DNA of 64,000 bases from an uncultured Gammaproteobacteria bacterium (GTDB lineage Bacteria; Patescibacteriota; Microgenomatia; Levybacterales; GWA1-39-11): NCBI GenBank assembly GCA_964452165.1, contig CAYVKP010000001.1, positions 76,110-140,109 on the forward strand. The letters run 5' to 3'. Positions 30,408 to 54,346 of this stretch are shown in pieces. The position numbers and the translations under genes are program-made. Positions within the stretch are counted from its first letter, which is position 1. Each line of letters opens with the position of its first letter. A model generated the notes under the pieces. It was not told where the DNA came from. It saw only the letters and a program-made list of their open reading frames with translations, and ran no database searches.

Positions 30408-30448
30408 CTGTCTTCAGGTTAGCATATTTTCTGATCCAGTTGCACCCC

Positions 30449-30478
30449 TTGACAAAAAGTTATCCACATTCGTATACT
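30449..30478 (+). promoter_or_regulatory. dnaA promoter (TTGACA-18-TATACT) with a consensus DnaA box TTATCCACA (30460-30468) in the spacer
   Basis: Direct read; a second weaker box TTATCCTGC lies at about 30491. Confidence 0.55.
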
Positions 30479-30517
30479 GTGACCCTCGCGTTATCCTGCC
30501 AAGAACGCCCCACACGT

Positions 30518-36931: not shown

Positions 36932-39244
36932 TTATGGATTCGGTTGTTGCGGCGGCGTAGGAGCGGCAGGTGAGGCGGGCGTGGTGGGATCCGGAGAATT
37001 AGGAATCTCATGCGGCGCAATTGGTGTTGTTGCCTTAGGAGTAGCCGGGACAGTCTGAGCAGGTTGTGGGGCAGGCGCGACCGGGGCCTGTATCGGAACT
37101 GTCTGTTGTGTGGCCGGGCTTGCTTGAGGCGGGACAGTCTGATTTTGTGGCGCCGGTGTGGCGGGTGTTGGAATAGGCGGAGCAGAATCTACAATTTTAA
37201 TTTCCGTATCTGCTGCGGGAACGCTTGTTCCACTTGGTATTGGCGCAGGCGCAGGTGTCTGTCCGGCTGCTTGCTCGGCAGCAGCCTGAGCGGTTATGCC
37301 GGCTTGATCTTCTCCTTGTTTTATTATGTCTTGAGGTTTTGAAGTGATCAATTCGTATTCTGCGCTTGATGCTATGAACTGAGCGGTTATATGATTTTGT
37401 CCGGCAAAAAGAAGTCCTTCACCAACCTGGGCCGTAACCAAAAATTGTTTCTCGCCTTCTGATAAGAAGAGTGCTTTTGCAAGCGTTTCAACCTCGGACG
37501 AATTTTGTTTCAGGAGAATCTGGATTGAGGAGTTTGAGAGTATCGATTTCCCATAGTCGTTGTTAAGAAAGTCCTCAATGTCCTGCGTAAGCGTTGTCAC
37601 TCCCAGGAAATATTTTCTTGCTCTTTTTGCAATTCCCTGCAGGAAACTCGCCGAATCGGGGTGCTTCATAAGATACCACGCCTCATCGACTACTAGAATT
37701 CTTTTCTTAAGTTTTGTTCTAACACGATTCCAGATAAAGTCTAAGACCACGTGCATGGCAATCGGTCGTAATGCGTCCTCGAGTTGCTTAATAGAAAAAA
37801 CCGTAAGCTGGTTTTTAATATCGTAGTTAGTTTGTTCGTTTAGAAGTCCTGAGAATCCTCCCTTGACATATTTTTCAAGCCTAAAGGAGAGATCTTTGGC
37901 TTCGGGTTCTTCCATGTTGAGAAGAGTTTTATAAAGATCTTCAAGAATTGGCGGCTCGTTTTTATAAGTTGTCGGATCCGGCGTTATCCCCTTTTGCTTG
38001 TAGCAAAGCACAATTGCACGGTCGAGAATCGCTTCTTGGGTTGGGGTCATATCTCCAAGCATGGTCTTTAAGAGTCCATGGAGAGATAAGATTTTAATTC
38101 CAAGCTGGGCGTCTGTCATGTCCTCAGAGATTAGGGCAAAAGGGTTTATCTTGACCTCTGAGCTTTTTGAGAAATTTATATACTCGCCATCCAGTGCGTG
38201 ACAAAGTGCTTTGTACTCGTCCTCCGGATCAATTATCAAAATCTCGGCATCAAACATCATCTGGCGAAGAAGTTCGAGCTTAACAAGAAAAGATTTTCCT
38301 GCACCGGATTTTCCAAAGACAACTTCATTTGCGTTTTCAAAAGAAAATCTGTCAACTATTGCCAGGGAATTGTTTATTGTGTTTATTCCATACAGAATTC
38401 CATTCGGGTGAGAAATTTCGTATGAAGTAAAAGGAAAAGTTGACGCGAGTGAGGTCGTGTCCATGTTGCGCGTTATAAAGAGTTTGTCGGTTCCTGAGGG
38501 AAGAGTGGTTTTAAATCCTTCCTCCATTTGCAAAGTTGCCGGACGAATCAAAAGAAGGTTCGATGCAAGAAGCGATGAGAGTTCTTTTGTTTTTGAATCA
38601 AGCGCTTCAACTGTATCTGCTGCAAGAGTTATATAAAGCCCAAACTGAAAAAAGCGCTCTAACCCCCGAGCAAGCTCTTCGCGAAGGGCAATAGCGTCTT
38701 CAAGGGCTGCGTTTATCTTGGGATCCGGCTCAAGACCTTGCTCCGCATCAGACTGAAGCGTTGCTTCCATTTCTGATATCTTACGACGCAAATTTGACAA
38801 GACGTCTTTGCTCTCAACGGGATAAGCGAACATAGATATATTCATCGTCTCTTTGTAATCGATTAGTATTGAAAGCCAATTAGGTGAAACTTGACGAGGA
38901 TAATCAACAACAAAGAAGGTTCTGAAAAATTTATCCCCAACGCGAATATTTTTAAAATCTACCTCAACGGAGGAGGGGGAAATAAGATCAACAACCGAGA
39001 CTGACCCTTGTTTTAAAGCAGTATAGCCCTTACTTGGCCCCGTAGGTTTTGCCGCAACTTTGCCTTTCGGCGCCGCGCGTCCTACTGCGGTTTTTGCCGC
39101 AGGGGTGGCGGTCGAGGGGGGTGTGCTTGTTTGGGTCTGTGGCGCTGGTGGCACCTGAGGTTGAGGCTCGTTTTGCCCCGCCTGCTTAATAACAGGTGTC
39201 GATTCTAGAACTTGCGGTTGTTTTTTTTTGCCAAGACCTAACAT
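36932..39244 (-). CDS. VirB4/TrbE/CagE-family T4SS ATPase with Pro/Thr/Ala-rich N- and C-terminal extensions
   Basis: Walker A FGKSGAGKSF, Walker B ILVVDEAWYL, VirB4-type N-domain (TFFVVDYPRQVSPNWLSIL). Confidence 0.85.
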   Translation of the reverse strand: MLGLGKKKQPQVLESTPVIKQAGQNEPQPQVPPAPQTQTSTPPSTATPAAKTAVGRAAPKGKVAAKPTGPSKGYTALKQGSVSVVDLISPSSVEVDFKNIRVGDKFFRTFFVVDYPRQVSPNWLSILIDYKETMNISMFAYPVESKDVLSNLRRKISEMEATLQSDAEQGLEPDPKINAALEDAIALREELARGLERFFQFGLYITLAADTVEALDSKTKELSSLLASNLLLIRPATLQMEEGFKTTLPSGTDKLFITRNMDTTSLASTFPFTSYEISHPNGILYGINTINNSLAIVDRFSFENANEVVFGKSGAGKSFLVKLELLRQMMFDAEILIIDPEDEYKALCHALDGEYINFSKSSEVKINPFALISEDMTDAQLGIKILSLHGLLKTMLGDMTPTQEAILDRAIVLCYKQKGITPDPTTYKNEPPILEDLYKTLLNMEEPEAKDLSFRLEKYVKGGFSGLLNEQTNYDIKNQLTVFSIKQLEDALRPIAMHVVLDFIWNRVRTKLKKRILVVDEAWYLMKHPDSASFLQGIAKRARKYFLGVTTLTQDIEDFLNNDYGKSILSNSSIQILLKQNSSEVETLAKALFLSEGEKQFLVTAQVGEGLLFAGQNHITAQFIASSAEYELITSKPQDIIKQGEDQAGITAQAAAEQAAGQTPAPAPIPSGTSVPAADTEIKIVDSAPPIPTPATPAPQNQTVPPQASPATQQTVPIQAPVAPAPQPAQTVPATPKATTPIAPHEIPNSPDPTTPASPAAPTPPQQPNP

Positions 39245-39245
39245 A

Positions 39246-39914
39246 TTACAAGACTACGTTTTTTATATCGTCAGCGTTCCAATCAAGCGTTACAAACTCT
39301 TGATTTAACATTTCATAGAATAATTTAATAAGCTCATCGGTCCCAAGGGGTCTGTGAGTTAGTCCCATTCTTTCAACCTGGGTAAGTATATTATTTCTCT
39401 TTGAGATTAGAGCGGACTTTATCCTGTCATTGAGCGGTAGTTTCTTTCCCGGAGTAGCAGGGGCTCCCGGCTGCTGTGTAGGCCCAATATTTGTAGGCCC
39501 AAGCTCAAGCTGAGAAAATGGAATAACGATATAAACTTTCTTATCAAGAAGCCCCTCCCCCTTTATTAGATCCGCAATAAAATCTCTATAAAGAGTTAGT
39601 TGTTCGGATATCTTTGGGTTTTTCACTTTGGAAATCTTGTCTTCGAGCAGCTTGATGTAGTTGCCCATGTCAATTCGTCTTGAAACTATAAGTATCTGAA
39701 TGTAGAAAGAAAGAGAGTTAAGTAGGGACATGTATCCATATATTCTGGCTGTCTGTTCATCGCTTGAAAGCAGAAAGAAATTAACCGATGAGATTTCCGC
39801 AACCATGCAAGTGTTGCCTCCCTTGAAAAAAATCATGTCGTCTGAGATATCAACAATTTCCGTAAAATCCTGAGTTGTTGAATGAATTTTTGATTTTGCC
39901 ATATTATTCACCAA
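39246..39914 (-). CDS. hypothetical T4SS-associated protein immediately upstream of VirB4
   Basis: Tightly coupled to VirB4 (2-nt gap); no domain recognised. Confidence 0.45.
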   Translation of the reverse strand: MVNNMAKSKIHSTTQDFTEIVDISDDMIFFKGGNTCMVAEISSVNFFLLSSDEQTARIYGYMSLLNSLSFYIQILIVSRRIDMGNYIKLLEDKISKVKNPKISEQLTLYRDFIADLIKGEGLLDKKVYIVIPFSQLELGPTNIGPTQQPGAPATPGKKLPLNDRIKSALISKRNNILTQVERMGLTHRPLGTDELIKLFYEMLNQEFVTLDWNADDIKNVVL

Positions 39915-39938: not shown

Positions 39939-41222
39939 TTAGACTGCGGCTACCGCCGGCCCTTGGCCGCCAAAAAGCTCTCGTCTAAGTTTCTCACGTG
40001 AATCAACAGATGTTACTTCAATCGGATTAAATATTGATCCATCGAGCGTTATTTGAATAATTTGAAATTCGTGTTGTTTTTGCGGATCCTCAAAGTAGAC
40101 TTTATATGTACCATTTGATAGTGGTGTAGCAGATGCAAATTGTCCAAGAGAGTTAGTCTTGAAAGCTCTTACCGGAATATTATTCGTATCAACAATCTCA
40201 ACCAGGATGTTCGGCATGGTTTTCCCACGTGGATCTCGCACAATGCCAAGAACTACATTTCCAATGTCGGGAAGACTCGGGAAGCCGGCTGCAAGGCTTG
40301 CCCCCGGAGCAACATACTTTACGCTTTCGGTTTGTTTTTGTTCCTGCCCCTGAGAAGGGGTGAACACTTGTTCTTCGGTCTTGCTCTTATCGAGCTCATA
40401 TCCCACAACTTTCTTGGCTAGGGTATCTTTCTCGGCTTGTGCCTGACTGAGTTGACCCTGAAGTTCTTTCACCTTGCCGGTCAGGTCCTCATTTGGAGCA
40501 GCGGTTTTAGTAGTCTCTTCTATTTTAGCCTTCCTGATACTGTTTGCACCGGTTTCTATGACTTTTTGGGCGACGGCTTGTTTTTCGCTAATAACCCCTC
40601 TTACCTGATCTTCCGTTTGTCTGATCATCTGAATAGGGTCGCTCGCTTTTTCTATCTCTTGGTGAAGAAGTCTTGCGGTATTTGTCCTTGGAGTATCCGC
40701 GGCAATTGGCGTAAGGGGACGAATATTAGCGCTTGTTGGATTCTCAAAGAAGGATTTAATAGTTTTAAGTTGTGCTATTTCGGAATCGTCTGCACGTACA
40801 TTCGAGTTTCTAAGCCTTGAGAGGAGAAGTGTTTTTTTGTCGTTGGCAGGCGTTGTGGCGGTTGTTGTTGCGGTCTTTGAAGTAACCCGAGGCTTGACAA
40901 CAATCCTTAAGGCTTCAAAAGAGGCCAGGTTTGCACCCTTTTTGTGGTAAATGTATCTATTTTCAGAAGGAATAGTTTTGGCAAAATTTGAGATCATAAC
41001 GTCCATCGGGCGACCTTCAATGGGTATAAAAGTAAGCGCGACACCAATTCCTGCAAAAAGCATCATCAGGGGTACTTTAATAAAGAAGTTAAGGTGTAGG
41101 ACGAAAGCAACCGTGGTAAGAATCCCAAAACCCAGAAGATATAAGAATTGTTTTACCGTAACACTTCCGATCAGCTTAAACTTAAAACCCGTAACATCCT
41201 GAGGAATGGGATGATTCTCCAT
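39939..41222 (-). CDS. membrane protein with PrgI/VirB3-like N-terminal 2-TM module, coiled-coil middle and beta-rich C-terminal domain
   Basis: FKLIGSVTVKQFLYLLGFGILTTVAFVL...MMLFAGIGVALTFIPIEGRP resembles PrgI-family VirB3 analogs. Confidence 0.45.
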   Translation of the reverse strand: MENHPIPQDVTGFKFKLIGSVTVKQFLYLLGFGILTTVAFVLHLNFFIKVPLMMLFAGIGVALTFIPIEGRPMDVMISNFAKTIPSENRYIYHKKGANLASFEALRIVVKPRVTSKTATTTATTPANDKKTLLLSRLRNSNVRADDSEIAQLKTIKSFFENPTSANIRPLTPIAADTPRTNTARLLHQEIEKASDPIQMIRQTEDQVRGVISEKQAVAQKVIETGANSIRKAKIEETTKTAAPNEDLTGKVKELQGQLSQAQAEKDTLAKKVVGYELDKSKTEEQVFTPSQGQEQKQTESVKYVAPGASLAAGFPSLPDIGNVVLGIVRDPRGKTMPNILVEIVDTNNIPVRAFKTNSLGQFASATPLSNGTYKVYFEDPQKQHEFQIIQITLDGSIFNPIEVTSVDSREKLRRELFGGQGPAVAAV

Positions 41223-41315: not shown

Positions 41316-43433
41316 TTATGGGGTCCCACCAACTAGTCGTCGTCCCGTACCTGTAACAACTGCTCCTGCAAATCCAAGTCCTCCCAAGAAACCCCAGATT
41401 CCCCAGCGAACCTTACTTCTTGTTGCAATATCAACAGGTATAGCACCTTTCGCAACTTCATCAGCAGGTTCTCGGCCTCTTGCTGGCTCTAATTTCTGAT
41501 GCCAATTTTCGTAGAACATACTCATCTCGTCATTTGAATAGGCTAGTTCACCCGCTTTACCAAACGCTATAACTCTGTCTCGTAGTCCTCTTGCCCCAAG
41601 GAACGCCTTCATGACTGTATCTTCGTAGTTTGCGCCTTCTCTGGTATATATTTCGTTAAACTTTTCGTTTCTCACTTTTACCGCCACATCTACTTTCTCT
41701 CTGTCGGTTAGGCTCAAGGTATCATAATCAGAGCCACTGTAAAGCTCCTCGACTACAATTGACCTTTGTTTTGCTGCATCAGTACTCCAGTTTACAATTG
41801 CGCCCATTGATTCTCTTCCGCCGTCTTTACCCTTGTGGACAAAGGGATCAAAGCGCTTCTTAATGTGAGTTCTGTCATACAGTCTTTTTCTCCTATTCTT
41901 GTCCATGGGCATTAACTTGTCTAAATCATCTTTTATTGCCTTGGCAGCATTCTTAGTCCATTCATCGCCTTTTTCTCCTGCTTCATCAGTCAATTTTTGA
42001 AGTCTTATTTCATTGAGTTTGATCATATCCCTTTGTCTTCCTGTTATGACTTCCGCAACAGAACTACGAACCAAATCTCGCATCTCAGCAACTATTCCTC
42101 TCTCTGCCTGGAGCCTGGCGGCGCGATCTCCCGCGGCCTCAGGACTTGCTTTGGTCTTCTCGATTGCTTCGTTTGCAGTACTGAGCCTCTTGTCTTCTTC
42201 AACCAGACGTTTTGCTGCTCCACCTATTCCTCCCTCACGAGTCATTCCGTCACTACCAACAGTTCCATATATCTGTTCTCGCATCGCCGAAATGGTTCTT
42301 AGGGCAGCGCTAATTTTCGTCTCGTCTCCTCCGAGAGAACCCTTAAGATATTCTCTTGTTGCCTGAGCCTCGGCTTTCTGCGTTTGCAGATCGATAACCT
42401 TATCCTGTAGTTCTCCGGCCCTTCTTGAAGTTTTATCGCTTCTTGTTCTTCCTCCCTCAAGTCTATCAATTTCACCTTGTAGTGCCTTGATTGTTTGGGC
42501 ACTTTTCTCTTCCACCAATTTTGCGGCTCCGTACGCGTCGTACTCGTTTATTCCCGTTATGCCCTTATCTTTTAGAAGTTTTAATAATATTCTTCCTTGA
42601 ATTTCTCCTTGAGATACGCCCGCTTTAATGAGCGGCTCGATTGCCGCTTTTAGTTCTGCTTGAGCCCCGCCTTCTATACCAAGTGTCTGAAAAACTAATT
42701 CAAAATTGGTTTCGATGTTCTTTTCAGCACTTACCTTGTCTACTTCGTGTTTCTTAAGTTCCTCGCCTTGTCCCACTTTTGCAAGCTCCCTGCTTCTTCT
42801 GAGTATGTCGTTGAGTTTGGTGGTCATAGCCTCATTAAGTTTGGGATCAGTTGCAAGTCTGTCTTTGACTATCGCTCTTTGTGCCGCGGGATCTGAATCT
42901 AAATCCTTAAGTCCGTCTATTCCTTCCCTAAGTCCGCCATCCGTCAGAAGAGTATCAAGCGCCTTGTCTTCAAAAACTTTCCACTCAGCAGCACCCTTAT
43001 CATAAACTTGCTCCGCCGTCCTTCCGGTTCTTGCAGCCTCGGCTACTATCTGAGTGTATTGCAAGACCGGTTCGTATGATTCTCGCGCTTCTTCACCTGC
43101 TGCAAAAATATCTTTGGCGTCCTGCGATGCTTCGGTGGGCATACTGGGTTTTCCGTCTGTTCCAAGGACTGCTTCCTCTGCGCCTAGTTGGGCCTGTAGG
43201 GCATTGCTGTCAGTTTTATTGAAATCGGGCCTTGGTTGATTTGCACGAAAAACTTCTGCTCCTGTCGTAGAGTTTGCGTGTTCTCTGACTGCATTCAGAT
43301 GTTCTGCCCTATCGGCTTGTTCTTTGGGCGCGCCTGTTGGCACAGTAGTTTTATCTTGTCCTCCATGATGGAATGCTTCTGTTTGAGTAGGTTGTTTGAG
43401 TTCGGTTGGTACGGCTGTTAATACGTCTGGCAT
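41316..43433 (-). CDS. large alpha-helical/coiled-coil protein with a Gly-rich hydrophobic C-terminus
   Basis: 705 aa, heptad-like charged repeats, C-terminal WGIWGFLGGLGFAGAVV. Confidence 0.5.
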   Translation of the reverse strand: MPDVLTAVPTELKQPTQTEAFHHGGQDKTTVPTGAPKEQADRAEHLNAVREHANSTTGAEVFRANQPRPDFNKTDSNALQAQLGAEEAVLGTDGKPSMPTEASQDAKDIFAAGEEARESYEPVLQYTQIVAEAARTGRTAEQVYDKGAAEWKVFEDKALDTLLTDGGLREGIDGLKDLDSDPAAQRAIVKDRLATDPKLNEAMTTKLNDILRRSRELAKVGQGEELKKHEVDKVSAEKNIETNFELVFQTLGIEGGAQAELKAAIEPLIKAGVSQGEIQGRILLKLLKDKGITGINEYDAYGAAKLVEEKSAQTIKALQGEIDRLEGGRTRSDKTSRRAGELQDKVIDLQTQKAEAQATREYLKGSLGGDETKISAALRTISAMREQIYGTVGSDGMTREGGIGGAAKRLVEEDKRLSTANEAIEKTKASPEAAGDRAARLQAERGIVAEMRDLVRSSVAEVITGRQRDMIKLNEIRLQKLTDEAGEKGDEWTKNAAKAIKDDLDKLMPMDKNRRKRLYDRTHIKKRFDPFVHKGKDGGRESMGAIVNWSTDAAKQRSIVVEELYSGSDYDTLSLTDREKVDVAVKVRNEKFNEIYTREGANYEDTVMKAFLGARGLRDRVIAFGKAGELAYSNDEMSMFYENWHQKLEPARGREPADEVAKGAIPVDIATRSKVRWGIWGFLGGLGFAGAVVTGTGRRLVGGTP

Positions 43434-43792
43434 TATTGATTTGTTTGTGTCTTTATCTCTTCAATTTTTTCCTGAACATCGGCTAGCTCTTGTTGATCAG
43501 TTTGTTTTGCTTCTTCTTGCTCAAGAGAGAGCAGGACAGGCTTGAAGACCGGATGATGGAGGACAAGCTCCTCAGCCCATACCTTCAGTTCTACATGGTC
43601 GTTTGCTCCTTCTATGTATTCAACTACAAAACGACTCGCTTGTTCGGATTCATCAACGGATAGATTTCCTTCTTTGAGTCCGTTAATCATGAGATCCGCA
43701 AGCTCATTAAGAAGCTCCTTTTTCTTCAATGCAAAACTTTGGGCGTTTGCGTCCATACCAAAAGAATAATGGAAAACGTGAGCAATTGTCAA
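43433..43792 (-). CDS. small acidic hypothetical protein
   Basis: 119-aa ORF translationally coupled to the gene downstream of it on this strand (1-nt overlap). Confidence 0.45.
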   Translation of the reverse strand: MTIAHVFHYSFGMDANAQSFALKKKELLNELADLMINGLKEGNLSVDESEQASRFVVEYIEGANDHVELKVWAEELVLHHPVFKPVLLSLEQEEAKQTDQQELADVQEKIEEIKTQTNQ

Positions 43793-43812: not shown

Positions 43813-44121
43813 CTATTTGGGGATCAATTGTTTGACTCCTGTAAATTTGCCAAGAGTTGCGAGTATTACAAATGAGGCAAGAACCAGAAGAAATCCACCC
43901 AATGCATAGAAAAGAGTTTTTCTCGTAGTTTTAAGTTTCTCCGGATCTCCTTCTGACGTGACCATTTTGTACCCTGAGAATATTATGAGAAAAACACATA
44001 CGATTCCGGCCAAGATAACGAGCGACCTTATAAGGTTGTCAAGAACAATCGGAATGCATCTAAGCGTTGCGACTTTTGTTTCTGGGTCGAGACAGCTATC
44101 CCAGGAGAGTGTTGGCATCAT
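43813..44121 (-). CDS. TrbC/VirB2-like mini-pilin (paralog A)
   Basis: Two hydrophobic helices around SGYKMVTSEGDPEKLKTTRKTLFYALGGFLLVLASFVIL. Confidence 0.6.
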   Translation of the reverse strand: MMPTLSWDSCLDPETKVATLRCIPIVLDNLIRSLVILAGIVCVFLIIFSGYKMVTSEGDPEKLKTTRKTLFYALGGFLLVLASFVILATLGKFTGVKQLIPK

Positions 44122-44179
44122 ATAACATTATTCTAAAAGCAAAATAGAGCAAAAGCAAGAGAAGAAGGAATTCGGAATG

Positions 44180-44602
44180 TTAAATCTGGCTGTCTGGAGC
44201 TTTTTGGAGAACCGGAATCTTGAGATGTGAGAGGCTTCCAAGTCCTAGCGCTGAGATTACGACGTTTACAATAACAAAAGATAGTGCAATTACAATGAGC
44301 CCAATGATTGCGGCGATAATGTGATTTCTCGCATCTGCTACTCTTTGTTTGTCTCCTCCTGATGTGATCCATTGAAATGCTCCAATAACTATGTAAAGAA
44401 GTGCTGCCAAGAATGCTACGACAATAACAAAAGCTACCGCAAAAGAGACGATAGAACCGATGCTTGTATCAGGTGTGATGATTGTCCCTCCGGGAGGGCT
44501 TTTAATAGACGCATTTAAAACGGCCGGGTCGCCCTGTGCGAGAACACCCTGAGCAAGTGCCAGAAAAGGTAGAGCTGAAAGCGCAATTTGTAATTTCTTC
44601 AT
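44180..44602 (-). CDS. TrbC/VirB2-like pilin with signal peptide (paralog B)
   Basis: Signal peptide MKKLQIALSALPFLALAQGVLA; core GAFQWITSGGDKQRVADARNHIIAAIIGLIVIALSFVIV. Confidence 0.6.
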   Translation of the reverse strand: MKKLQIALSALPFLALAQGVLAQGDPAVLNASIKSPPGGTIITPDTSIGSIVSFAVAFVIVVAFLAALLYIVIGAFQWITSGGDKQRVADARNHIIAAIIGLIVIALSFVIVNVVISALGLGSLSHLKIPVLQKAPDSQI

Positions 44603-44683
44603 AACCTAATTTTTATTACAGCATTTTTCACAACCTTTGTCAAGAGGAGTAGAGTATAACGTATTTTGTTAGAATAAGGGGAA

Positions 44684-46123
44684 ATGAAAATAGGATTAAA
44701 ATTATTCTTTTGGTTCGTAATTTTTTTGGTAGGTTTTGGCTTTTATATTAAAAATGTTTCATTGCTTGATCCCGACTTTGGTTGGCATCTTCACTTAGGG
44801 CAGTTAATTTTAAAGTCCGGAATACCAAAATTGGATCCCTTCTCATACACTATGCCCTCATTCCCATTTATAGATCATGAGTGGTTATCAAACGTAATAA
44901 TCTATCTAGTTTATTCCAAGAGCCAGTTTGTTTTAAATATAATTTTTGCAATCTTTACAACAGCAACGTTTATAATTCAATTTCCAAAGAAGAATAAGTG
45001 GTTGGCGATTCCGTTTTTCTTACTTTCTTGCGCCTCGATTGTAATTTTTTCAGGAGTTCGTGTACAGGTTGTCTCATGGTTTTTGTTCTCGGTGTTGTTA
45101 AAAATAATTTTTGATGAAAGTCTTTGGAAAAAATGGCGAATCACGGTTCCCTTACTGGTTGTTATTTGGGCAAATCTCCACGGCGGTTTTGCAATCGCCA
45201 TTTTTCTTTTAGGAATCTTTTTGTTCTCGAGGATTTTCTTAAAAAAGATTGATAAATGGGATTTTGCGGTTTTCTTAGCATCAATTGCTGCAACTTTTGT
45301 AAATCCATATGGAGCAAGACTTTGGTCTGAGGTTTTGTCTTCAGTGACAGACACGAGTCTTCGTTTTGAAATTCAAGAATGGCTTCCTGGAGTGCTCATA
45401 TTTAATGTCCCCCTTGTTGTTCTCGTTTCTATCATTTTGGGACTTGGTTCGTCGCTTTATAAAAAACTTACTTTTACCCAAATTGGAATTTTTATAGTAT
45501 TTCTTCTGCTCGCAGCATCAAGTATTCGTCATACACCTTTCTTTATAATAATTGCATTTTGTTTTTCAACTCAGCTTTTCACTCTCTTTTATTCGGGTAT
45601 CAAGAAAGCCGAACAAAAAAAACGTTTTGATAAATTTAATATTGGTCTCTTTTTAATCGCGGGATTCTTATTTATATACGCATTTTATAATTCGGCAATT
45701 CATAATCCTCATTCGGTAGAAAAATTTTATCCTACCAAGGACGCAGTAGGGTATATGTCTAAAAATGCAAAAGAAAGCCAAATTTTTGCTTTGTACAACT
45801 GGGGTGGATATTTAATATGGAAACTGCCTTCCAAAAAAGTTTTCATTGATGGAAGAATGCCTTCCTGGCGATTTAAAGCGCCCGTCGGACAGGCAGACTC
45901 AGCCTTAAAAGAATACGACAGTATTGTGACGGGAGACGCCGACTACAAAGTTTTTTTTGATAAATATAAAATTGCGTGGGCGATTCTTGATAAGCCCTGT
46001 CCCCAAAACAGATTATTTCTGTGTCAAAGATTGTTACATGATGGCTGGAGCAGGGTATATGAGGATAAGGTTTCCATCATTTACAAAAAGCCAATACTTA
46101 ATGGGTCACTGCGCCGTTTGTAA
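44684..46123 (+). CDS. polytopic membrane protein (about 11 TM plus C-terminal soluble domain), GT-C-fold-like putative glycosyltransferase
   Basis: First-loop motif DPDFGWHLHLGQLILKSG followed by many TM helices and a roughly 130-aa C-terminal domain, the layout of ArnT/PglL-type enzymes. Assignment is weak. Confidence 0.4.
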   Translation: MKIGLKLFFWFVIFLVGFGFYIKNVSLLDPDFGWHLHLGQLILKSGIPKLDPFSYTMPSFPFIDHEWLSNVIIYLVYSKSQFVLNIIFAIFTTATFIIQFPKKNKWLAIPFFLLSCASIVIFSGVRVQVVSWFLFSVLLKIIFDESLWKKWRITVPLLVVIWANLHGGFAIAIFLLGIFLFSRIFLKKIDKWDFAVFLASIAATFVNPYGARLWSEVLSSVTDTSLRFEIQEWLPGVLIFNVPLVVLVSIILGLGSSLYKKLTFTQIGIFIVFLLLAASSIRHTPFFIIIAFCFSTQLFTLFYSGIKKAEQKKRFDKFNIGLFLIAGFLFIYAFYNSAIHNPHSVEKFYPTKDAVGYMSKNAKESQIFALYNWGGYLIWKLPSKKVFIDGRMPSWRFKAPVGQADSALKEYDSIVTGDADYKVFFDKYKIAWAILDKPCPQNRLFLCQRLLHDGWSRVYEDKVSIIYKKPILNGSLRRL

Positions 46124-46442
46124 CACCTACGGCAGATGTTATAAAGTTTACTATAACCAAAGATAACGCCATGATTATAATCCCCAAAATTGAATAGACG
46201 ATAATTCTTCTTGCATGGTCAAGTTTTTCCTTATCTCCCTTAGATTGTAACCAGTAAAAGCCGCCATAAGTCATATAAATTAAAGAAAGAATTACTCCAA
46301 TGACCATTGCAACCTCAACGAATTTTGTGGCAAGTGAGGAGATTGTGAATTCCGCACCATGTGGAATTCCTGCAGGCGGGTGAATTTCAATTGATGACGT
46401 GCCATCTCCGGTTGGAACTTTCAAAGAAATAAGACCTCTCAT
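46098..46442 (-). CDS. TrbC/VirB2-like mini-pilin (paralog C)
   Basis: Core GGFYWLQSKGDKEKLDHARRIIVYSILGIIIMALSLVIV. Confidence 0.6.
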   Translation of the reverse strand: MRGLISLKVPTGDGTSSIEIHPPAGIPHGAEFTISSLATKFVEVAMVIGVILSLIYMTYGGFYWLQSKGDKEKLDHARRIIVYSILGIIIMALSLVIVNFITSAVGVTNGAVTH

Positions 46443-48127
46443 CTTGACAATCCTGGAATCTTAAGAATATCGACTCCAACTATCTCAAGTATAACAATCG
46501 AAAGAATTATAAACAACAATCCTACTATCGCCGCGGTTATTGTTTCCCTGGCTCCTGCAAGTTTTTCCTTATCTCCCCGAGATATCATAAGTAAGTAACC
46601 CGAGTAGATGATTATGATGATTGCTCCAAATCCTGCCAATGTTAGTATGAAGCCAAACATAGTTTCAATAAAACCCTTAAATGAACTGACATCAATGTTT
46701 CCTATAGCCGTATTTATTGATTTACAGTTAAGTGTCGAATTTTTGGTACGAATAGGATTACTTCCGTTTCCGCAAGGGAGTCCTACGGCCAGATCCTTCT
46801 TGTTAAGAGCTGCAAGCTCTTTCAGAAATGCCTTGTATTCTTCTCCTTGGGGATCCTTTCCGTCCTGAGGGTTTGTACAAGATCCCCCCGCTTTATTAGC
46901 AGGGCTTACGCCGCAAGTTATTTGATAGTATGTAAATCCGCCCTGACATGTATTAATAAAGGTATTATCGATGTCGTTTATTGTCCTAACGCCGAATTTT
47001 CCTACGTCTATAGCTTTTTGTATAGGGTAAATGATTGGCCTGAGCGCTTGTTTCGCAATATCAACTGCAAAATCTTTAGGGTGGGTGAAATCGTGTGCTA
47101 AGTCGCCAATCACACCAGTAACTTTTTTAACTACGTGCAGGGGATTTGGATCAAACCCAAGAAGTCCTCCTCCTCCGCCTCCACCACCACCCGTATCACC
47201 GCTTTTTAAGGCACCGCCCAGAGTATCGGGTTCATTTATCTGTTCTTTTATTAAAATCGTGTATACACCGGCGTCAGTAATTCCTCCAAAGGGTTGAGCT
47301 TGTCCAATGTCTATACACCCCTCACTGTCGTAGCCGCCTTCTCCTCCCTGAACCAGTACTTGATAATTATTCCTTTTTTCTCCTCCTCCTTTGGATCGGC
47401 CTGAAATAGTGACCTTGAAGGTGTTTATTGGAGCGACAAGGCTTTGATTTGGCTCAACGCTTACGGTGGGATAATATTTGGTCACATAGAATCCACCATT
47501 CTTAACAGGTTGGTATTTATCGCCTTGAGCGGCTTTTTTGACGACGCTGAAATTATACATTTGTCCACCCTGAAACCAATTCTCCTTATCTGGTCCACAT
47601 CCCTCGATCTTTAAATTATCTCCGTCTCCACAAACTCTGAAGCGTACATCTCCCTCTTCGTCTGCTTGACTCCCATCATCCGTTAATACGCTGTCGTCGG
47701 ATATCTTGCCCGTTCCAAAACAGTTATCGTCTCCCGTACAAATGAAATATTTTGTTCCCGGATTTAAATTGTGGAATGTAATATCTACGCAGGGTAGTGA
47801 TTCATCAATGCTCAAGAAGTTGGGGTTAGTTGTAAAGTCGCTATCGCCTTGGGTATCCTGTGCAAGTGCCAAGTCGGCCGACGTAAGAGGTATTCCATTT
47901 CCACAAGGGCTTGTTGGGGCCGCGGTTGGCGAGGGGGTAGTTTGGCCCGCGGGATTTTGTGCAGGTGTTTGGGGAGTGGTGTTTTGACCGGAGCCATTGG
48001 GTGACGTGGTTTGACCAAGGGGGTTGGGAGTAGTTTGAGCATAGCCGGTGCCTGAAAAAGAAGAGAAAAAGACAAAAAGAATTGAGGATACAAAAATGAA
48101 CTGTAGAATAACTCTCAAGATCTTCAC
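46439..48127 (-). CDS. secreted Pro/Thr- and Gly-rich surface protein carrying a C-terminal VirB2-like pilin module (paralog D)
   Basis: Signal peptide, poly-Gly tract GGGGGGGGGLLG, many Cys, C-terminus YSGYLLMISRGDKEKLAGARETITAAIVGLLFIILSIVIL. Confidence 0.6.
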   Translation of the reverse strand: MKILRVILQFIFVSSILFVFFSSFSGTGYAQTTPNPLGQTTSPNGSGQNTTPQTPAQNPAGQTTPSPTAAPTSPCGNGIPLTSADLALAQDTQGDSDFTTNPNFLSIDESLPCVDITFHNLNPGTKYFICTGDDNCFGTGKISDDSVLTDDGSQADEEGDVRFRVCGDGDNLKIEGCGPDKENWFQGGQMYNFSVVKKAAQGDKYQPVKNGGFYVTKYYPTVSVEPNQSLVAPINTFKVTISGRSKGGGEKRNNYQVLVQGGEGGYDSEGCIDIGQAQPFGGITDAGVYTILIKEQINEPDTLGGALKSGDTGGGGGGGGGLLGFDPNPLHVVKKVTGVIGDLAHDFTHPKDFAVDIAKQALRPIIYPIQKAIDVGKFGVRTINDIDNTFINTCQGGFTYYQITCGVSPANKAGGSCTNPQDGKDPQGEEYKAFLKELAALNKKDLAVGLPCGNGSNPIRTKNSTLNCKSINTAIGNIDVSSFKGFIETMFGFILTLAGFGAIIIIIYSGYLLMISRGDKEKLAGARETITAAIVGLLFIILSIVILEIVGVDILKIPGLSR

Positions 48128-48168
48128 TTATTAATGATAGTCAGAAGTAAAGCACATTGTCAAACAAA

Positions 48169-49470
48169 TTATTTACTAAATTTATAGCCCCGGCCTTTTA
48201 CGGTTTGAATGAAACGGGGATTCTCAGGATCATCTTCGATTTTTCGACGCAGTCTATAAATTATTTGATCGAGTGCTTGGTCCGTGACTCCTTCCTGGGT
48301 TTGGTTATCCTTCCAGACCCCTGTGATTATCTCGTCTTTCTCGGAAATTTTGTCTGCGTTTGTCATAAGGAATTTTAACAGTCTAAACTCTGAGGGGGTA
48401 AGTTTCTCGGTTAAGTTTTCTTGTCCTTTCATGATCTCATTTTTCTCAGGATCATATTTTAATTCGCCAGCAACCTCTTTCGGTCGCTTGTTAACGAACG
48501 AAACAAATAAGGGAATCGTTATTTTCCCCCCGCTTGTCAGATTTAATTTCTCAAGATTTTCATTTTTCGTTTCGCTTCTTATGTCTTTTTGTTCTTCGGG
48601 AGTCAGGAAATTCCATATTTCAAAAAGAGCAGCCTTTACCTGAGTGTTAGAGATTAAAAATTCCTCTAAATCTTTAGATCTATCTTCTGCAAGAACCGCC
48701 TCGTAAGAAACTTTTGCAAGCTTTCCATGTCCACCCGTAAGTGTTTCAACCTCATTTCTCACTTTTTCAGAAGCTTTTTTACCGGTAATCTCCTCAAGGT
48801 GAGAAAATCTGAAGGTAAGGCCAACGGGGTCTTTAATAGGTAGAAAGATTGTGTTGCCCACAAGGAGTTCATAAAATTCAGAGTAGAGCGGGAGTTCAAG
48901 TGTGTCTTCAATTGGACGGCTTACTGCAAAAACAGCAAGGAAATTGTATTTAACCCGGTTTCTTAAAATTCTTAAGTTTAGGAAAAACTTAGAATCCACA
49001 TTCGGAATATAATCTTCGAATCGGTCGAAAAGAAAAACCAAAAAGTATCCCTTGTCTTTGACTAGAAAATCTACAGTCTTTTTAAGCGCCTGAAAGAGTA
49101 TCAGCTCATCTTGAAAATTTACAACTTCTGCCAGATACTCGTTGACCGTATTTTGTGCTTCAGTTAGTCTTCTCTCGCCTAGGGAATAGGAGACTGAGAT
49201 CAGGATGAACTTTACAATCTCAAACAAACTTCTGCCCCGGACTTCCGAGAAGTCCATATATATAAAGTGAAAGCTAGGCTCATCTGTACCCAGGTGAAGT
49301 TCTCGTACCTTCCTGTTATATGGTAGTAGACGCAAGGCGTTACTTTTTCCAACACCGGGGATTCCAACCACCTGGCAAGATGCGCCCGTGCGTAGAATTT
49401 TGATCATTTCTGATATTTCTGCTTCACGCGTGTTGGGTGGGTAGAGAGCCTCAAAATGGTTGGGTTCCAT
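48169..49470 (-). CDS. P-loop NTPase fused to a C-terminal OmpR/PhoB-type winged-helix DNA-binding domain
   Basis: Walker A GIPGVGKSN. C-terminus TPSEFRLLKFLMTNADKISEKDEIITGVW...RLRRKIEDDPENPRFIQTVKGRGYKF (trans_reg_C). Confidence 0.65.
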   Translation of the reverse strand: MEPNHFEALYPPNTREAEISEMIKILRTGASCQVVGIPGVGKSNALRLLPYNRKVRELHLGTDEPSFHFIYMDFSEVRGRSLFEIVKFILISVSYSLGERRLTEAQNTVNEYLAEVVNFQDELILFQALKKTVDFLVKDKGYFLVFLFDRFEDYIPNVDSKFFLNLRILRNRVKYNFLAVFAVSRPIEDTLELPLYSEFYELLVGNTIFLPIKDPVGLTFRFSHLEEITGKKASEKVRNEVETLTGGHGKLAKVSYEAVLAEDRSKDLEEFLISNTQVKAALFEIWNFLTPEEQKDIRSETKNENLEKLNLTSGGKITIPLFVSFVNKRPKEVAGELKYDPEKNEIMKGQENLTEKLTPSEFRLLKFLMTNADKISEKDEIITGVWKDNQTQEGVTDQALDQIIYRLRRKIEDDPENPRFIQTVKGRGYKFSK

Positions 49471-52714: not shown

Positions 52715-54346
52715 TTATCCCCCAATTACTGAACGGAAGAGACCTCTCCATATTCCAATAGGTTGAGCATGACCACTTTTGTCGTATGTGTATCCAAGTC
52801 CGGCTGTGTAGCCTCTTCCGAATTGTCCAATAATCCCCGGACCTGCCGAAAGAGATCTACCGATACCCGATGAATACTTGAAGTCAGGAGACTTAAGAGC
52901 ATCTTTTACCATGACTGCTGCCTCAGGCGCCATTAATATTATTCCTAGGCCAATTATTGATCCAAAACGCGACGGATCAGTAAGATCTCCAACTAAAGGA
53001 GGGATAAATGGCGTTACTCCACCAGGAGTATGTCCGCTAAAGCCGTTAATAAAAGTTTGCCCTAGAAGAAATAAGGTTATTGTTGCGGGAAAGACAGCAA
53101 GATTTGAGAGCATTCCTCTGAAAAAAGCTCCGAGTCCGGATCTACCCGGAATAAGGCCGCTGGCGATATAAAAAGGGGAGAAAACTACGGTTACCAAGAC
53201 TGAGATGTAGCATTTAATTAGCTGGAACCATATTCGCAGAAGCGCTTGGAAGATAGCAATGATAATTACAATATATGCAATAAGACCGGCTATAAGACCG
53301 ATAAGTTTATTCCCGAGTATTGCTCCACCAACTCCACCAATTGCTCCTCCAATCAGGCTCGCTTTTGTAAAAAATGCGCCCACAAGAGGTAGCGGTATTC
53401 CTTTGCCTATCTGTTGGCCAATCAAACCACCAATAAGTGTACCTATTATTCCACCTAAGACCCTACCCAGTGTTCCATCAAATATAGATGCCGTAATTCC
53501 CGATATGTTTTTTGCGACTCCAAAAGCAATTCCGCTTACTCCCCCAATTCCTCCGGCAGCCCCAAAAGGATTGGTTGAAAGAGAGTTTGAAGGGTCAATT
53601 CCGGCTTGAGAAAAGAGTGACATTATAAGGTAGATTGAGACATACATCATGTCTATTAGAAATCCTGCAATTGCATACGAGAAAGTTACAAAAATAATAG
53701 CCATTATAATTTTTGGTATCTGATTTTGAAGTGTCATGACAGTTCTTGGATCAATTTTAATTCTGAACATTATTCCAAGTCCCACGATTACAAAAAGAAT
53801 TACAAAAAGAAGATATGTAACATTTCTAAAAACCTGCCAGAGCTTGAGAGTAGGCAGGAGAGAATTAAAACCTATGCTTCCCTCTCTTTGATTTTTTGCT
53901 TGTCCTGCCGCAGCCGGAGTATCTCCTGTGTTTTGTGCATACGTCCTTTTTGCTATGCCAAAATTTGATGCCACATCAGCAACATAATCGTGAGTCGATA
54001 TTGGAATGTAAAAAGTTTCAGCGATTAAATTACCTACAAGTCCTATTGCGCCCCCACCACCTTCAACAAAACCTATCTTTTTAGTTTTAGGGTCTATTCC
54101 AAGACATTTTCCGTCGGGATTTATGGGGTCAATGCCACTTAATTGGCAGGAAATTGCCGCTCCTACCTCTATAAAAACGCTTTGAGTATATGTATGAAAG
54201 TCCTGAGGAACGTTAGGATTTGTATTTAGATAATTTTGATTGGGCTGCGTTGGTGTTGTACTTTGAGCATATATTTTAGGAACGAACAGAAGTGCGAGCA
54301 AAAGAAAAAAGAGAATTGATAAAATCTTAAGCTTCATGGACAGCAC
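52715..54346 (-). CDS. VirB6/TrbL-like polytopic membrane protein with signal peptide and Gly-rich TM helices
   Basis: Signal peptide, then at least 6 TM with GxxxG-rich helices (GGIIGTLIGGLIGQQIGKGIP ...). Size and topology match VirB6/TrbL. Confidence 0.55.
   Translation of the reverse strand: MLSMKLKILSILFFLLLALLFVPKIYAQSTTPTQPNQNYLNTNPNVPQDFHTYTQSVFIEVGAAISCQLSGIDPINPDGKCLGIDPKTKKIGFVEGGGGAIGLVGNLIAETFYIPISTHDYVADVASNFGIAKRTYAQNTGDTPAAAGQAKNQREGSIGFNSLLPTLKLWQVFRNVTYLLFVILFVIVGLGIMFRIKIDPRTVMTLQNQIPKIIMAIIFVTFSYAIAGFLIDMMYVSIYLIMSLFSQAGIDPSNSLSTNPFGAAGGIGGVSGIAFGVAKNISGITASIFDGTLGRVLGGIIGTLIGGLIGQQIGKGIPLPLVGAFFTKASLIGGAIGGVGGAILGNKLIGLIAGLIAYIVIIIAIFQALLRIWFQLIKCYISVLVTVVFSPFYIASGLIPGRSGLGAFFRGMLSNLAVFPATITLFLLGQTFINGFSGHTPGGVTPFIPPLVGDLTDPSRFGSIIGLGIILMAPEAAVMVKDALKSPDFKYSSGIGRSLSAGPGIIGQFGRGYTAGLGYTYDKSGHAQPIGIWRGLFRSVIGG

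What the first reader, a model, noticed from the sequence alone, without database searches (positions are those of the whole stretch)
43813..48127. Four paralogous VirB2/TrbC-like pilin modules, one fused to a large Gly/Pro/Cys-rich surface domain
All four share the core [hydrophobic helix]-G(G/Y)(F/L)xx(I/M)(T/S)SxGD(K/P)EKLxxAR-[hydrophobic helix]. Examples are TSEGDPEKLKTTRK, TSGGDKQRVADARN, QSKGDKEKLDHARR and ISRGDKEKLAGARE. Three are about 100-140-aa mini-pilins. The fourth is the C-terminus of a 562-aa secreted protein with a proline-rich stalk, a Cys-rich region and a poly-Gly tract, which could be a tip adhesin or minor pilin that integrates into the filament via its pilin module. Multiple differentiated pilin paralogs suggest filament heterogeneity or antigenic/host-range variation.
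Basis: seen in the sequence. Interest (0 to 1): 0.7.

Follow-up and report, generated by a model that had tools for sequence, protein, structure and literature searches.

The report
Four-gene pilin set of a Patescibacteria secretion system

Summary
Four minus-strand genes (102, 140, 114 and 562 aa) each end in the same two-helix hairpin with the loop S-x-G-D-x-E-K-x3-A-R. No fifth copy exists in the window. Three pass Pfam PF18895 (T4SS_pilin). The 562-aa protein scores below threshold, but a profile built without any of its orthologues finds it at E 7e-16.

The genes lie in a PrgI/VirB3, TrsD-like, VirB4, VirB1-like cluster beside dnaN-dnaA, in a Levybacteria-like (Microgenomatia) genome. Such VirB2-like pilin arrays in Patescibacteria are published (Wang 2023; Quiñonero-Coronel 2025), so the core finding is a new member of a known kind.

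Three results go beyond those papers:
- The four genes are fixed orthologous positions in 11 genomes. Identity is 45-59% within a position and 28-37% between positions. This argues for division of labour, not antigenic variation.
- The first pilin always has a signal peptide and a variable Cys-rich ectodomain of 39-469 aa, here with two Ig-like domains. It belongs to a family of at least 593 clusters.
- A GT-C glycosyltransferase-like gene sits inside the array in one subclade.

Membership of canonical TrbC/VirB2 (PF04956) is not met. Whether a pilus forms is untested.

The parts
46439..48127 (-). Pilin position 1 (562 aa). Layout: signal peptide (1-31), Pro/Thr-rich linker, two beta-sandwich domains (~98-298), a lineage-specific Gly-rich disordered insert (299-392), a conserved Cys-rich juxtamembrane module (394-478), a PF18895-type helical hairpin (480-555) and a conserved C-terminal tail G-V-D-I-L-K-I-P-G-L.
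   Evidence: ORF and sequence. PF18895 21.1 bits. Leave-one-out HMM E 6.6e-16. AF2 model. Foldseek finds tandem FN3/Ig-like folds. Homologue alignment A1. Large family.
46098..46442 (-). Pilin position 2 (114 aa). No signal peptide. Conserved N-tail motif L-S-L-K-V-P-G...G-I-P-x-G, then the hairpin. Its start overlaps the stop of position 1 by 4 nt.
   Evidence: (PF18895 29.1 bits).
44684..46123 (+). Embedded non-pilin gene (479 aa). Polytopic GT-C-fold glycosyltransferase-like protein on the opposite strand. It splits the array into two transcription units.
   Evidence: No Pfam hit. More than 2000 homologues in Microgenomates. AF2 pLDDT 92.7. Foldseek best hits are STT3/PglB/AglB, then ArnT and ALG. 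Same position inside the array in L007 and L019-L022; elsewhere it sits beside GT87/PMT_2 genes.
44180..44602 (-). Pilin position 3 (140 aa). Signal peptide ending AQG-VLA-Q, short ectodomain tail, hairpin, and C-tail L-K-I-P. It is the most conserved position and a candidate major subunit. A TTGACA-17-TGTAAT promoter-like site lies 5' of it.
   Evidence: (PF18895 35.7 bits).
43813..44121 (-). Pilin position 4 (102 aa). No signal peptide. Short N-tail with two conserved Cys (W-D-S-C...T-L-x-C-I-P), then the hairpin.
   Evidence: (PF18895 29.9 bits; TrbC 16.8 bits).
48169..49470 (-). Candidate regulator: P-loop/AAA-like N-terminal region plus an OmpR-type winged helix (Trans_reg_C). It is conserved immediately upstream of pilin position 1 in all 10 related loci.
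   Evidence: (79.6 bits).
39939..41222 (-). PrgI/VirB3-like protein with two TM segments and a C-terminal CarboxypepD_reg-like beta-sandwich.
   Evidence: (PrgI 28.6 bits, cutoff 27).
39246..39914 (-). TrsD-like protein (222 aa; resembles the VirB4 N-terminal domain).
   Evidence: TrsD 20.4 bits, sub-threshold; Mbov_0397 VirB4 N-terminal region E 9e-7. Conserved next to VirB4.
36932..39244 (-). VirB4 ATPase, CD1110 (monoderm, MPF_FATA-type) family.
   Evidence: NF045971 407.9 bits, cutoff 325.
34714..36918 (-). VirB1-like protein: long charged N-terminal region, one TM segment, and a C-terminal lysozyme-like SLT_3 domain.
   Evidence: (38.2 bits).
41316..43792 (-). Two lineage-variable genes between the pilins and PrgI: 119 aa, and 705 aa (helical, charged, Gly-rich hydrophobic C-terminus). 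Function unknown. They are recognisable only in L009 among the related loci.

Best explanation
The interval encodes the fixed four-member set of VirB2-like (Pfam PF18895) pilin subunits of the chromosomal, origin-proximal, monoderm-type T4SS of a Levybacteria-like Patescibacterium.

Shown here:
- All four share a two-helix hydrophobic hairpin with the loop S-x-G-D-x-E-K-x3-A-R.
- They lie in one gene cluster with PrgI/VirB3, a TrsD-like protein, VirB4 and a VirB1-like lysozyme, beside dnaN-dnaA.
- Each of the four is a separate orthologous lineage kept in the same order in 11 genomes, under purifying selection.
- The first subunit always has a signal peptide and an ectodomain that varies in length and sequence.

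Inferred from signal peptides, charge distribution and known VirB2/TraA biology:
- The hairpins insert N-out/C-out with the charged loop in the cytoplasm.
- VirB4 extracts them from the membrane.
- They polymerise into a short heteromeric pilus or conduit.
- The small subunits, most likely position 3, build the shaft.
- Position 1 is incorporated sparsely or at the tip, so that its N-terminal Ig-like, Cys-rich ectodomain projects outward and binds the host cell. This would fill the adhesin role that VirB5 or separate adhesins play in other T4SSs.
For: - Family assignment: PF18895 above the gathering score for three proteins. All 38 orthologue cores hit PF18895, best E 5e-14. NCBIfam 'Mbov_0395 pilin-like conjugal transfer protein' is the only hit for all four.
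- Paralogy beyond chance.
- T4SS context: VirB4 CD1110 family 408 bits, PrgI, SLT_3, TrsD-like, dnaA/dnaN.
- Conserved synteny regulator-pos1-pos2-pos3-pos4-...-PrgI-TrsD-VirB4 in 10 other loci.
- Clustering by position: within-position identity 45-59%, between-position 28-37%, nearest neighbour at the same position in 42 of 44. Each position has its own N- and C-tail motifs.
- Purifying selection on the cores: omega 0.02-0.10 in the closest pair.
- Position 1: signal peptide in every orthologue, N-region 39-469 aa, up to 15 Cys, dN about 6 times that of the core. The model shows two beta-sandwich domains matching tandem FN3/Ig folds.
- The fusion is a real family: 593 representative clusters at E <= 1e-30 (that count includes partial matches). 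Of the top 150, most are full-length fusions of about 380-780 aa with the pilin module at the C-terminus, and about a dozen are shorter proteins matching only the C-terminal part.
- Literature: a predicted pilin series inside the T4SS cluster is essential in Southlakia epibionticum (PMC10633639). 441 arrays of 2-11 PF18895/VirB2 genes, in tandem or split by one non-pilin gene, are abundant in Microgenomatia, often near dnaA (PMC12102498).
Against: - No pilus has been seen for any Patescibacteria T4SS in the papers found.
- Two of the four lack a signal peptide, so their N-out topology is inferred only from charge bias.
- The p562 model has low overall confidence (pLDDT 58), and the Ig-like assignment rests on segments with pLDDT 65-89.
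- Stoichiometry, the identity of the major subunit and tip location are all guesses.
Confidence: 0.6

Rival explanations
1. The four hairpin proteins are membrane-resident parts of the T4SS translocon, for example a hetero-oligomeric channel or assembly platform around VirB4/PrgI. They never form an extracellular filament. The 562-aa protein is then simply a surface adhesin or receptor anchored in the cell membrane by a C-terminal hairpin.
For: - Gram-positive-type T4SSs normally lack pili (PMC12102498, PMC12857230).
- VirB2 is required for substrate transfer even in Gram-negative systems that make no pilus (PMC12857230).
- A fixed 1:1:1:1 gene set with position-specific conserved motifs suits a defined hetero-oligomer at least as well as a filament.
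- No significant similarity to solved pilus subunits.
Against: - The family is the one that Pfam and NCBIfam name pilin or pilin-like.
- The signal-peptide-plus-hairpin architecture equals that of VirB2.
- Published structure-based annotation calls the Southlakia homologues pilins (PMC10633639).
- None of this is direct evidence for a filament.
Confidence: 0.27
2. The paralogues are interchangeable variants used for antigenic or host-range variation, as proposed for the multi-copy TrwL/VirB2 genes of Bartonella and Anaplasma. Copy number and sequence would then turn over between strains.
For: - Multiple divergent copies are present.
- The 2025 survey raises this possibility for Patescibacteria arrays (PMC12102498).
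Against: - Copy number (4) and order are identical in 11 loci spanning 45-95% core identity.
- Copies group by position, not by genome (42 of 44 nearest neighbours).
- Each position has its own topology signals: signal peptide yes/no/yes/no.
- Cores are under purifying selection.
- No recent duplication or gene-conversion tracts; the longest shared DNA is 26 nt.
Confidence: 0.06
3. The shared motif is coincidental similarity among unrelated small membrane proteins (generic TM hairpins).
For: - Low-complexity hydrophobic sequences attract weak hits to many families: DUF350, Yip1, DHHC and TrbC at 13-17 bits.
Against: - PF18895 scores are 12-20 bits above that background.
- Leave-one-out HMMs separate the four from every other ORF in the window by more than 14 orders of magnitude in E-value.
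- The loop motif and the synteny are conserved across genomes.
Confidence: 0.01

Closest known systems
Patescibacteria T4SS pilin arrays: the essential pilin series in the Southlakia epibionticum ML1 T4SS cluster SEML1_0006-0019 (Wang et al. 2023, PMC10633639), and the 441 arrays of 2-11 VirB2/PF18895 genes surveyed by Quiñonero-Coronel et al. 2025 (PMC12102498)
   Same: - Same Pfam family (PF18895).
- Same monoderm-type VirB4/PrgI/TrsD context.
- Same chromosomal position near dnaA.
- Tandem genes that may be split by one non-pilin gene.
- About 25-35% identity among the copies.
- Class Microgenomatia is named as rich in such arrays.
   Different: - Here there are four copies, against six described for Southlakia (PMC12857230).
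- The papers read do not mention the position-by-position orthology.
- They do not mention the large variable ectodomain on the first pilin.
- They do not mention the embedded GT-C gene.
VirB2/TrbC/TraA conjugative pilins of Gram-negative T4SSs (Pfam PF04956; A. tumefaciens VirB2)
   Same: - Small proteins with a signal peptide (two of the four here).
- Two hydrophobic helices joined by a short charged loop.
- Encoded beside VirB3 and VirB4.
- An in-register but non-significant profile alignment.
   Different: - PF04956 threshold not met.
- hhalign probability 2.5%.
- The organism is expected to be a monoderm.
- Four distinct subunits instead of one.
- One subunit carries an ectodomain of about 450 aa.
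- No evidence for cyclisation or for a pilus.
Mycoplasma ICE 'Mbov_0395 family pilin-like conjugal transfer protein' (NCBIfam NF045849)
   Same: It is the only NCBIfam model hit by all four proteins, over 55-72 residues spanning most of the 80-position profile, and it is also part of a monoderm MPF_FATA-type system.
   Different: Scores of 19.9-34.6 bits are below the family cutoff of 40. It is a single gene in ICEs, not an array. It belongs to a mobile element rather than a chromosomal, origin-proximal system.
Multi-copy trwL (VirB2) arrays of the Bartonella Trw system and virB2 paralogues of Anaplasma
   Same: Several tandem VirB2-type genes in one T4SS locus.
   Different: Those are interpreted as recent amplifications for surface variation. 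Here the copies are ancient, position-specific orthologues with a fixed number.
VirB5 tip protein, and initiator minor pilins of type IVb pili (CofB/TcpB). These are functional analogies recalled from general knowledge and were not tested here.
   Same: A low-abundance subunit that carries an extra beta-rich domain, sits at the filament tip and mediates contact. Position 1 could work like this.
   Different: No sequence or fold relationship was shown. Type IV pilins have a single N-terminal helix, not a hairpin. VirB5 has no pilin module.

Membership tests
Pfam PF18895 T4SS_pilin | Profile match at or above the gathering score (26.6 bits) | tested here: met
   Scores are 29.9, 35.7 and 29.1 bits for the 102-, 140- and 114-aa proteins. 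All 38 orthologue cores match, best E 5e-14.
Pfam PF18895 T4SS_pilin | The same match for the C-terminus of the 562-aa fusion protein | tested here: inconclusive
   The score is 21.1 bits, below 26.6. However, 5 of 9 homologues carry a precomputed PF18895 hit, and an HMM built without any position-1 sequence finds it at E 6.6e-16.
Pfam PF18895 T4SS_pilin | Two hydrophobic helices separated by a short charged loop | tested here: met
   Hydropathy, alignment and AF2 helices 480-515 and 520-555 in p562.
TrbC/VirB2 pilin (Pfam PF04956) | Profile match at or above the gathering score (27.9 bits) | tested here: not met
   Only the 102-aa protein hits, at 16.8 bits. Eight of 38 orthologue cores give sub-threshold hits, best E 1.7e-4.
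TrbC/VirB2 pilin (Pfam PF04956) | Profile-profile homology to authentic VirB2/TrbC proteins | tested here: not met
   hhalign of A2 (38 cores) against A4 (A. tumefaciens VirB2 plus six annotated VirB2/TrbC proteins from plasmids) gives probability 2.5% and E 0.019. The alignment is in register but not significant.
TrbC/VirB2 pilin (Pfam PF04956) | Cleavable signal peptide followed by the hairpin | tested here: inconclusive
   A signal-peptide-like segment is present at positions 1 and 3 and absent at positions 2 and 4, consistently across orthologues. No dedicated signal-peptide predictor was available.
TrbC/VirB2 pilin (Pfam PF04956) | Polymerises into an extracellular conjugative pilus, often after processing or cyclisation | not testable with these tools
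   This needs microscopy or proteomics. No solved-structure relative was found by sequence or by fold.
Patescibacteria chromosomal MPF_FATA-like T4SS with pilin array (PMC12102498) | VirB4 of the monoderm type encoded nearby | tested here: met
   NF045971 CD1110-family VirB4 scores 407.9 bits against a cutoff of 325, at 36932-39244.
Patescibacteria chromosomal MPF_FATA-like T4SS with pilin array (PMC12102498) | PrgI/VirB3 and TrsD homologues adjacent to virB4 | tested here: met
   PrgI scores 28.6 bits against a cutoff of 27. TrsD is only sub-threshold at 20.4 bits, but it has conserved synteny and similarity to the VirB4 N-terminal domain.
Patescibacteria chromosomal MPF_FATA-like T4SS with pilin array (PMC12102498) | Two to eleven PF18895/VirB2 genes in tandem or separated by one non-pilin gene | tested here: met
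   Four genes, split 2+2 by one opposite-strand gene.
Patescibacteria chromosomal MPF_FATA-like T4SS with pilin array (PMC12102498) | Location near dnaA/dnaN in a Patescibacteria genome | tested here: met
   dnaA is at 30440-31861 and dnaN at 31994-33097. The closest relatives are Ca. Levybacteria MAGs. The source contig is 650,109 bp.
Patescibacteria chromosomal MPF_FATA-like T4SS with pilin array (PMC12102498) | No relaxase or coupling protein in the cluster | tested here: inconclusive
   None was found among the larger ORFs scanned between 22 and 63 kb of the window. The rest of the window and the genome were not scanned.
Antigenic-variation pilin arrays (Bartonella Trw type) | Recent tandem amplification with variable copy number and high inter-copy similarity | tested here: not met
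   Copy number is fixed at 4 in 11 loci. Inter-copy identity is 28-37%. Copies cluster by position. The longest shared DNA is 26 nt.

The most novel reading that the evidence does not exclude
Microgenomatia build a heteromeric T4SS pilus from four non-interchangeable VirB2-like subunits. The first is a pilin-adhesin chimera: a swappable Ig-like, Cys-rich ectodomain fused directly to the pilin hairpin. It would nucleate or cap the filament and set host specificity, replacing VirB5 or separate adhesins. In one Levybacteria subclade the subunits may also be modified by the OST-like GT-C enzyme encoded inside the array. To my knowledge no T4SS pilus with a defined multi-subunit composition or a pilin-fused adhesin has been described.
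Probability: 0.25. Interest if true: 0.7.

Novelty: new member of a known kind. Interest (0 to 1): 0.38.

Why it matters
Patescibacteria are a large share of uncultured bacterial diversity and live attached to host cells. Their T4SS, including its pilin series, is essential in the one genetically tractable species, yet what it transports and whether it makes a pilus are unknown.

This locus adds no new kind of system, but it sharpens the question in two ways:
- The pilins in Levybacteria are a conserved four-part kit rather than a variable family.
- One part carries a rapidly diverging surface domain that belongs to a family of hundreds of clusters.

That gives concrete candidates for a host-recognition determinant and for the shaft subunit. 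These could be tested by proteomics, cryo-ET or multimer modelling.

Tried and rejected
- Exact-sequence look-up of the 562-aa protein and of its 559-aa NCBI version found no contig. Taxon assignment therefore rests on the nearest relatives.
- Sequence search of the pilin profile against all PDB chains gave only chance hits, best E 0.042 to a viral glycoprotein TM region, and no conjugative pilin.
- The Foldseek AFDB50 library was unavailable.
- hhalign against a small authentic VirB2/TrbC alignment was not significant. A larger, more diverse VirB2 profile might do better.
- The promoter and terminator scan found no more sites than in shuffled sequence. The two promoter-like sites mentioned are consensus matches only.
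- dN/dS is mostly saturated (dS > 1). Only the L002/L003 pair is usable, and even there the values are rough.
- The 'RGD' in the p562 loop was considered as an adhesion motif and rejected. It lies in the predicted cytoplasmic loop and is not conserved (SSGD, SQGD and SGGD in orthologues).
- Pilin N-glycosylation by the embedded GT-C enzyme was considered. N-x-S/T sequons occur in the position-3 tails of the window, L002 and L003, but not in L007, which also has the enzyme. L002 and L003 lack the enzyme. There is no support beyond gene adjacency.

Full report
OBSERVATION

All four quoted motif strings are present. Each protein ends in two strongly hydrophobic segments joined by the loop S-x-G-D-x-E-K-x3-A-R. 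The 140-aa and 562-aa proteins also begin with a signal-peptide-like segment. A six-frame HMM scan finds exactly four copies in the 64-kb window.

The interval also holds a fifth, unrelated gene on the plus strand (44684-46123, 479 aa). It overlaps the 3' end of the 114-aa gene by 26 nt and diverges from the 140-aa gene across an 81-bp spacer (44603-44683).

IS IT MORE THAN A GENERIC TM HAIRPIN?

Yes, on three counts.
- Pfam PF18895 (T4SS_pilin) scores 29.9, 35.7 and 29.1 bits against a gathering score of 26.6 for the three small proteins, and 21.1 bits for the C-terminus of the 562-aa protein. The usual hydrophobic background families (DUF350, Yip1, DHHC, DUF6336) reach only 13-17 bits.
- The TrbC/VirB2 family PF04956 is hit only by the 102-aa protein, at 16.8 bits against a cutoff of 27.9. 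That is inside the background.
- In a leave-one-position-out test, HMMs built solely from orthologues of the other three positions in other genomes recover each window paralogue at E 7e-16 to 1e-23. The best non-pilin ORF of the window scores E >= 0.075.

NCBIfam's only hit for all four is the 'Mbov_0395 family pilin-like conjugal transfer protein' of Mycoplasma ICEs, below its cutoff.

CONTEXT

Downstream on the same strand lie, in order:
- two lineage-variable genes (119 and 705 aa);
- a PrgI/VirB3-family protein (39939-41222);
- a 222-aa TrsD-like protein;
- a VirB4 ATPase of the monoderm CD1110 family (408 bits, cutoff 325);
- a 734-aa protein ending in a lysozyme-like SLT_3 domain (VirB1-like);
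- three small exported proteins;
- dnaN and dnaA on the other strand.

Upstream is a conserved regulator-like gene with a P-loop region and an OmpR-type winged helix.

An identical copy of the fusion protein is recorded on a 650,109-bp NCBI contig. The closest loci in a species-level genome collection are Candidatus Levybacteria and Shapirobacteria MAGs, both in class Microgenomatia.

This is the chromosomal, origin-proximal, MPF_FATA-like T4SS of Patescibacteria. Quiñonero-Coronel et al. 2025 searched with PF18895 and PF04956. They report 441 'VirB2 arrays' of 2-11 genes, tandem or separated by one non-pilin gene, averaging 25% identity, especially in Microgenomatia and Saccharimonadia, often near dnaA (PMC12102498). 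Wang et al. 2023 showed that the pilin series inside the Southlakia T4SS cluster is essential (PMC10633639). A 2025 review calls these the only monoderm T4SSs with VirB2-like pilins (PMC12857230). The core of the finding is therefore already described as a class. This locus is a new member.

WHAT THE COMPARISON ADDS

In ten related loci the order is the same: regulator, large pilin, about 113-aa pilin, about 140-aa pilin, about 100-aa pilin, then PrgI, TrsD-like and VirB4, with dnaN/dnaA beyond.

Hairpin cores cluster by position, not by genome. Identity is 45-59% within a position across genomes and 28-37% between positions. The nearest neighbour sits at the same position in 42 of 44 cases.

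Each position has its own flanking signature:
- Position 1: signal peptide plus ectodomain, and an invariant C-tail D-I-L-x-I-P-G-F/L.
- Position 2: no signal peptide, N-tail L-S-L-K-V-P-G...G-I-P-x-G.
- Position 3: signal peptide, C-tail L-x-I-P-T-L.
- Position 4: no signal peptide, two conserved Cys before helix 1.

In the least saturated pair the cores have omega of about 0.02-0.10. Position 3 is the most conserved. The paralogues share no DNA repeat longer than 26 nt. These are ancient, differentiated, co-retained subunits. That fits a heteromeric structure or a division of labour. It does not fit antigenic variation by paralogue turnover.

THE FUSION PROTEIN

Position 1 always has a signal peptide, but its N-region ranges from 39 to 469 aa and carries up to 15 Cys. 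It diverges faster than the hairpin: 23-37% identity where the cores are 45-95% identical, and dN 0.167 against 0.029 in the closest pair.

The window's version is the longest. An AlphaFold model (mean pLDDT 58, domain segments 65-89) shows these parts in order:
- a disordered Pro/Thr linker;
- two beta-sandwich domains (about 98-298);
- a disordered Gly-rich insert found in only a few homologues (299-392);
- a small conserved Cys-rich module (394-430, pLDDT 84-89);
- the helical hairpin (480-555).

Foldseek matches the beta part to tandem FN3 and cytokine-receptor-like pairs (E about 6e-6, low TM-scores). This is a generic Ig-like fold and gives no specific function.

An exhaustive profile search finds 593 representative clusters at E <= 1e-30. 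Most of the top 150 are full-length proteins of about 380-780 aa with the pilin module at the C-terminus; about a dozen are shorter and match only the C-terminal part. The chimera is thus a sizeable uncharacterised family, not a one-off. It is not discussed in the papers I read.

MECHANISM

Shown: family membership, context, orthology, selection and domain layout.

Inferred:
- With a cleaved signal peptide the mature N-terminus is outside, so helix 1 runs out-to-in, the basic loop is cytoplasmic and the C-tail is outside. This is the membrane topology established for VirB2 and TraA.
- The Cys-rich ectodomain agrees with an extracytoplasmic location.
- By analogy with VirB2 systems, VirB4 would extract the hairpins and feed them into a pilus or conduit in which both termini face outward.
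- An N-terminal domain of about 450 aa would then project from the filament. For steric reasons it could be tolerated only sparsely or at the tip.
- I therefore favour position 3 as the shaft subunit and position 1 as an adhesin-bearing minor or tip subunit. Confidence in the pilus part is moderate only.

The main rival is that the four form a membrane-resident hetero-oligomer of the translocon, with the fusion as a hairpin-anchored surface protein. Nothing here excludes that.

MEMBERSHIP CAVEATS

Homology to canonical VirB2/TrbC could not be demonstrated:
- PF04956 is not met.
- hhalign against authentic VirB2/TrbC sequences retrieved from plasmids gives probability 2.5%.
- No PDB pilin was found by sequence.

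'VirB2-like' is thus a statement about architecture and context, plus the published structure-based annotation. It is not a tested homology.

SIDE OBSERVATION

The embedded 479-aa gene folds with high confidence (pLDDT 92.7). Its best matches are the oligosaccharyltransferases STT3, PglB and AglB (TM-score 0.56-0.64), then ArnT and ALG enzymes. It is therefore a GT-C-fold glycosyltransferase-like protein, without an obvious WWDYG motif.

It occupies the same slot inside the array in a Levybacteria subclade. In other Microgenomates its homologues sit beside GT87 and PMT_2 genes and dnaG-rpoD. A specific link to the pilins is possible but unsupported.

VERDICT

The system is already published as a class. 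The new details are modest: four fixed orthologous subunits, a widespread pilin-ectodomain chimera and an embedded GT-C gene. Interest is moderate to low (0.38). It would be higher only if the heteromeric-pilus and fused-adhesin reading were confirmed.

Noticed in passing
window 44684-46123 (+): A 479-aa polytopic protein with no Pfam hit sits between pilin genes 2 and 3 on the opposite strand. Its high-confidence AF2 model (pLDDT 92.7) best matches the oligosaccharyltransferases STT3/PglB/AglB, then ArnT and ALG, so it has a GT-C fold. It has more than 2000 homologues in Microgenomates. It lies inside the pilin array only in a Levybacteria subclade and elsewhere sits beside GT87/PMT_2 genes. 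Pilin glycosylation is conceivable but unsupported.
   Followed up: partly
window 48169-49470 (-): A 433-aa protein with a P-loop/AAA-like N-terminal region and a C-terminal OmpR-type winged helix (Trans_reg_C, 79.6 bits). It is conserved immediately upstream of the first pilin gene in all 10 related loci, making it a candidate dedicated regulator of the pilin/T4SS operon. It has no receiver domain.
   Followed up: partly
window 52715-54346 (-): A 543-aa protein with about 7 hydrophobic segments and no Pfam or NCBIfam hit, conserved upstream of the locus in all related loci (37-58% identity). It could be the highly diverged VirB6-like polytopic component that the 2025 survey reports as scarce in Microgenomatia.
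   Followed up: no
window 43813-48127; C-termini of pilin positions 1, 3 and 4: A conserved proline-containing tail follows helix 2: D-I-L-K-I-P-G-L at position 1, L-K-I-P-V/T-L at position 3 and Q-L-I-P-K at position 4. Position 2 lacks it. It might be a processing or packing signal, by analogy with C-terminal processing of TrbC. It remains unexplained.
   Followed up: no
window 48134-48163 (-) and 44610-44643 (-): A near-consensus sigma-70-like site (TTGACA-18-TATCAT) ends only 6 nt before the GTG start of the 562-aa gene. This suggests a leaderless mRNA or a downstream start; NCBI calls a 559-aa product. A second site (TTGACA-17-TGTAAT) precedes the 140-aa gene, so the array is probably two transcription units. 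These are consensus matches only.
   Followed up: partly
window 41316-43792 (-): A 705-aa highly charged, helical protein with a Gly-rich hydrophobic C-terminus, and a 119-aa acidic protein, lie between the pilins and PrgI. They are recognisable in only one related locus (L009). In other genomes this slot is variable in length, from 0.15 to 4.9 kb.
   Followed up: partly
window 39939-41222 (-): The PrgI/VirB3-like protein is unusually long (427 aa). It carries a C-terminal CarboxypepD_reg-like beta-sandwich (27 bits, just under the cutoff) after a long low-complexity linker. This is another membrane T4SS component with an appended extracellular Ig-like domain.
   Followed up: no
L012-L017 (Shapirobacteria-like loci): Only two adjacent PF18895-type genes are present (a large one followed by a small one), with no VirB4, PrgI or regulator homologue within 10 kb. 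Array size and linkage to virB4 therefore differ between orders of Microgenomatia.
   Followed up: partly
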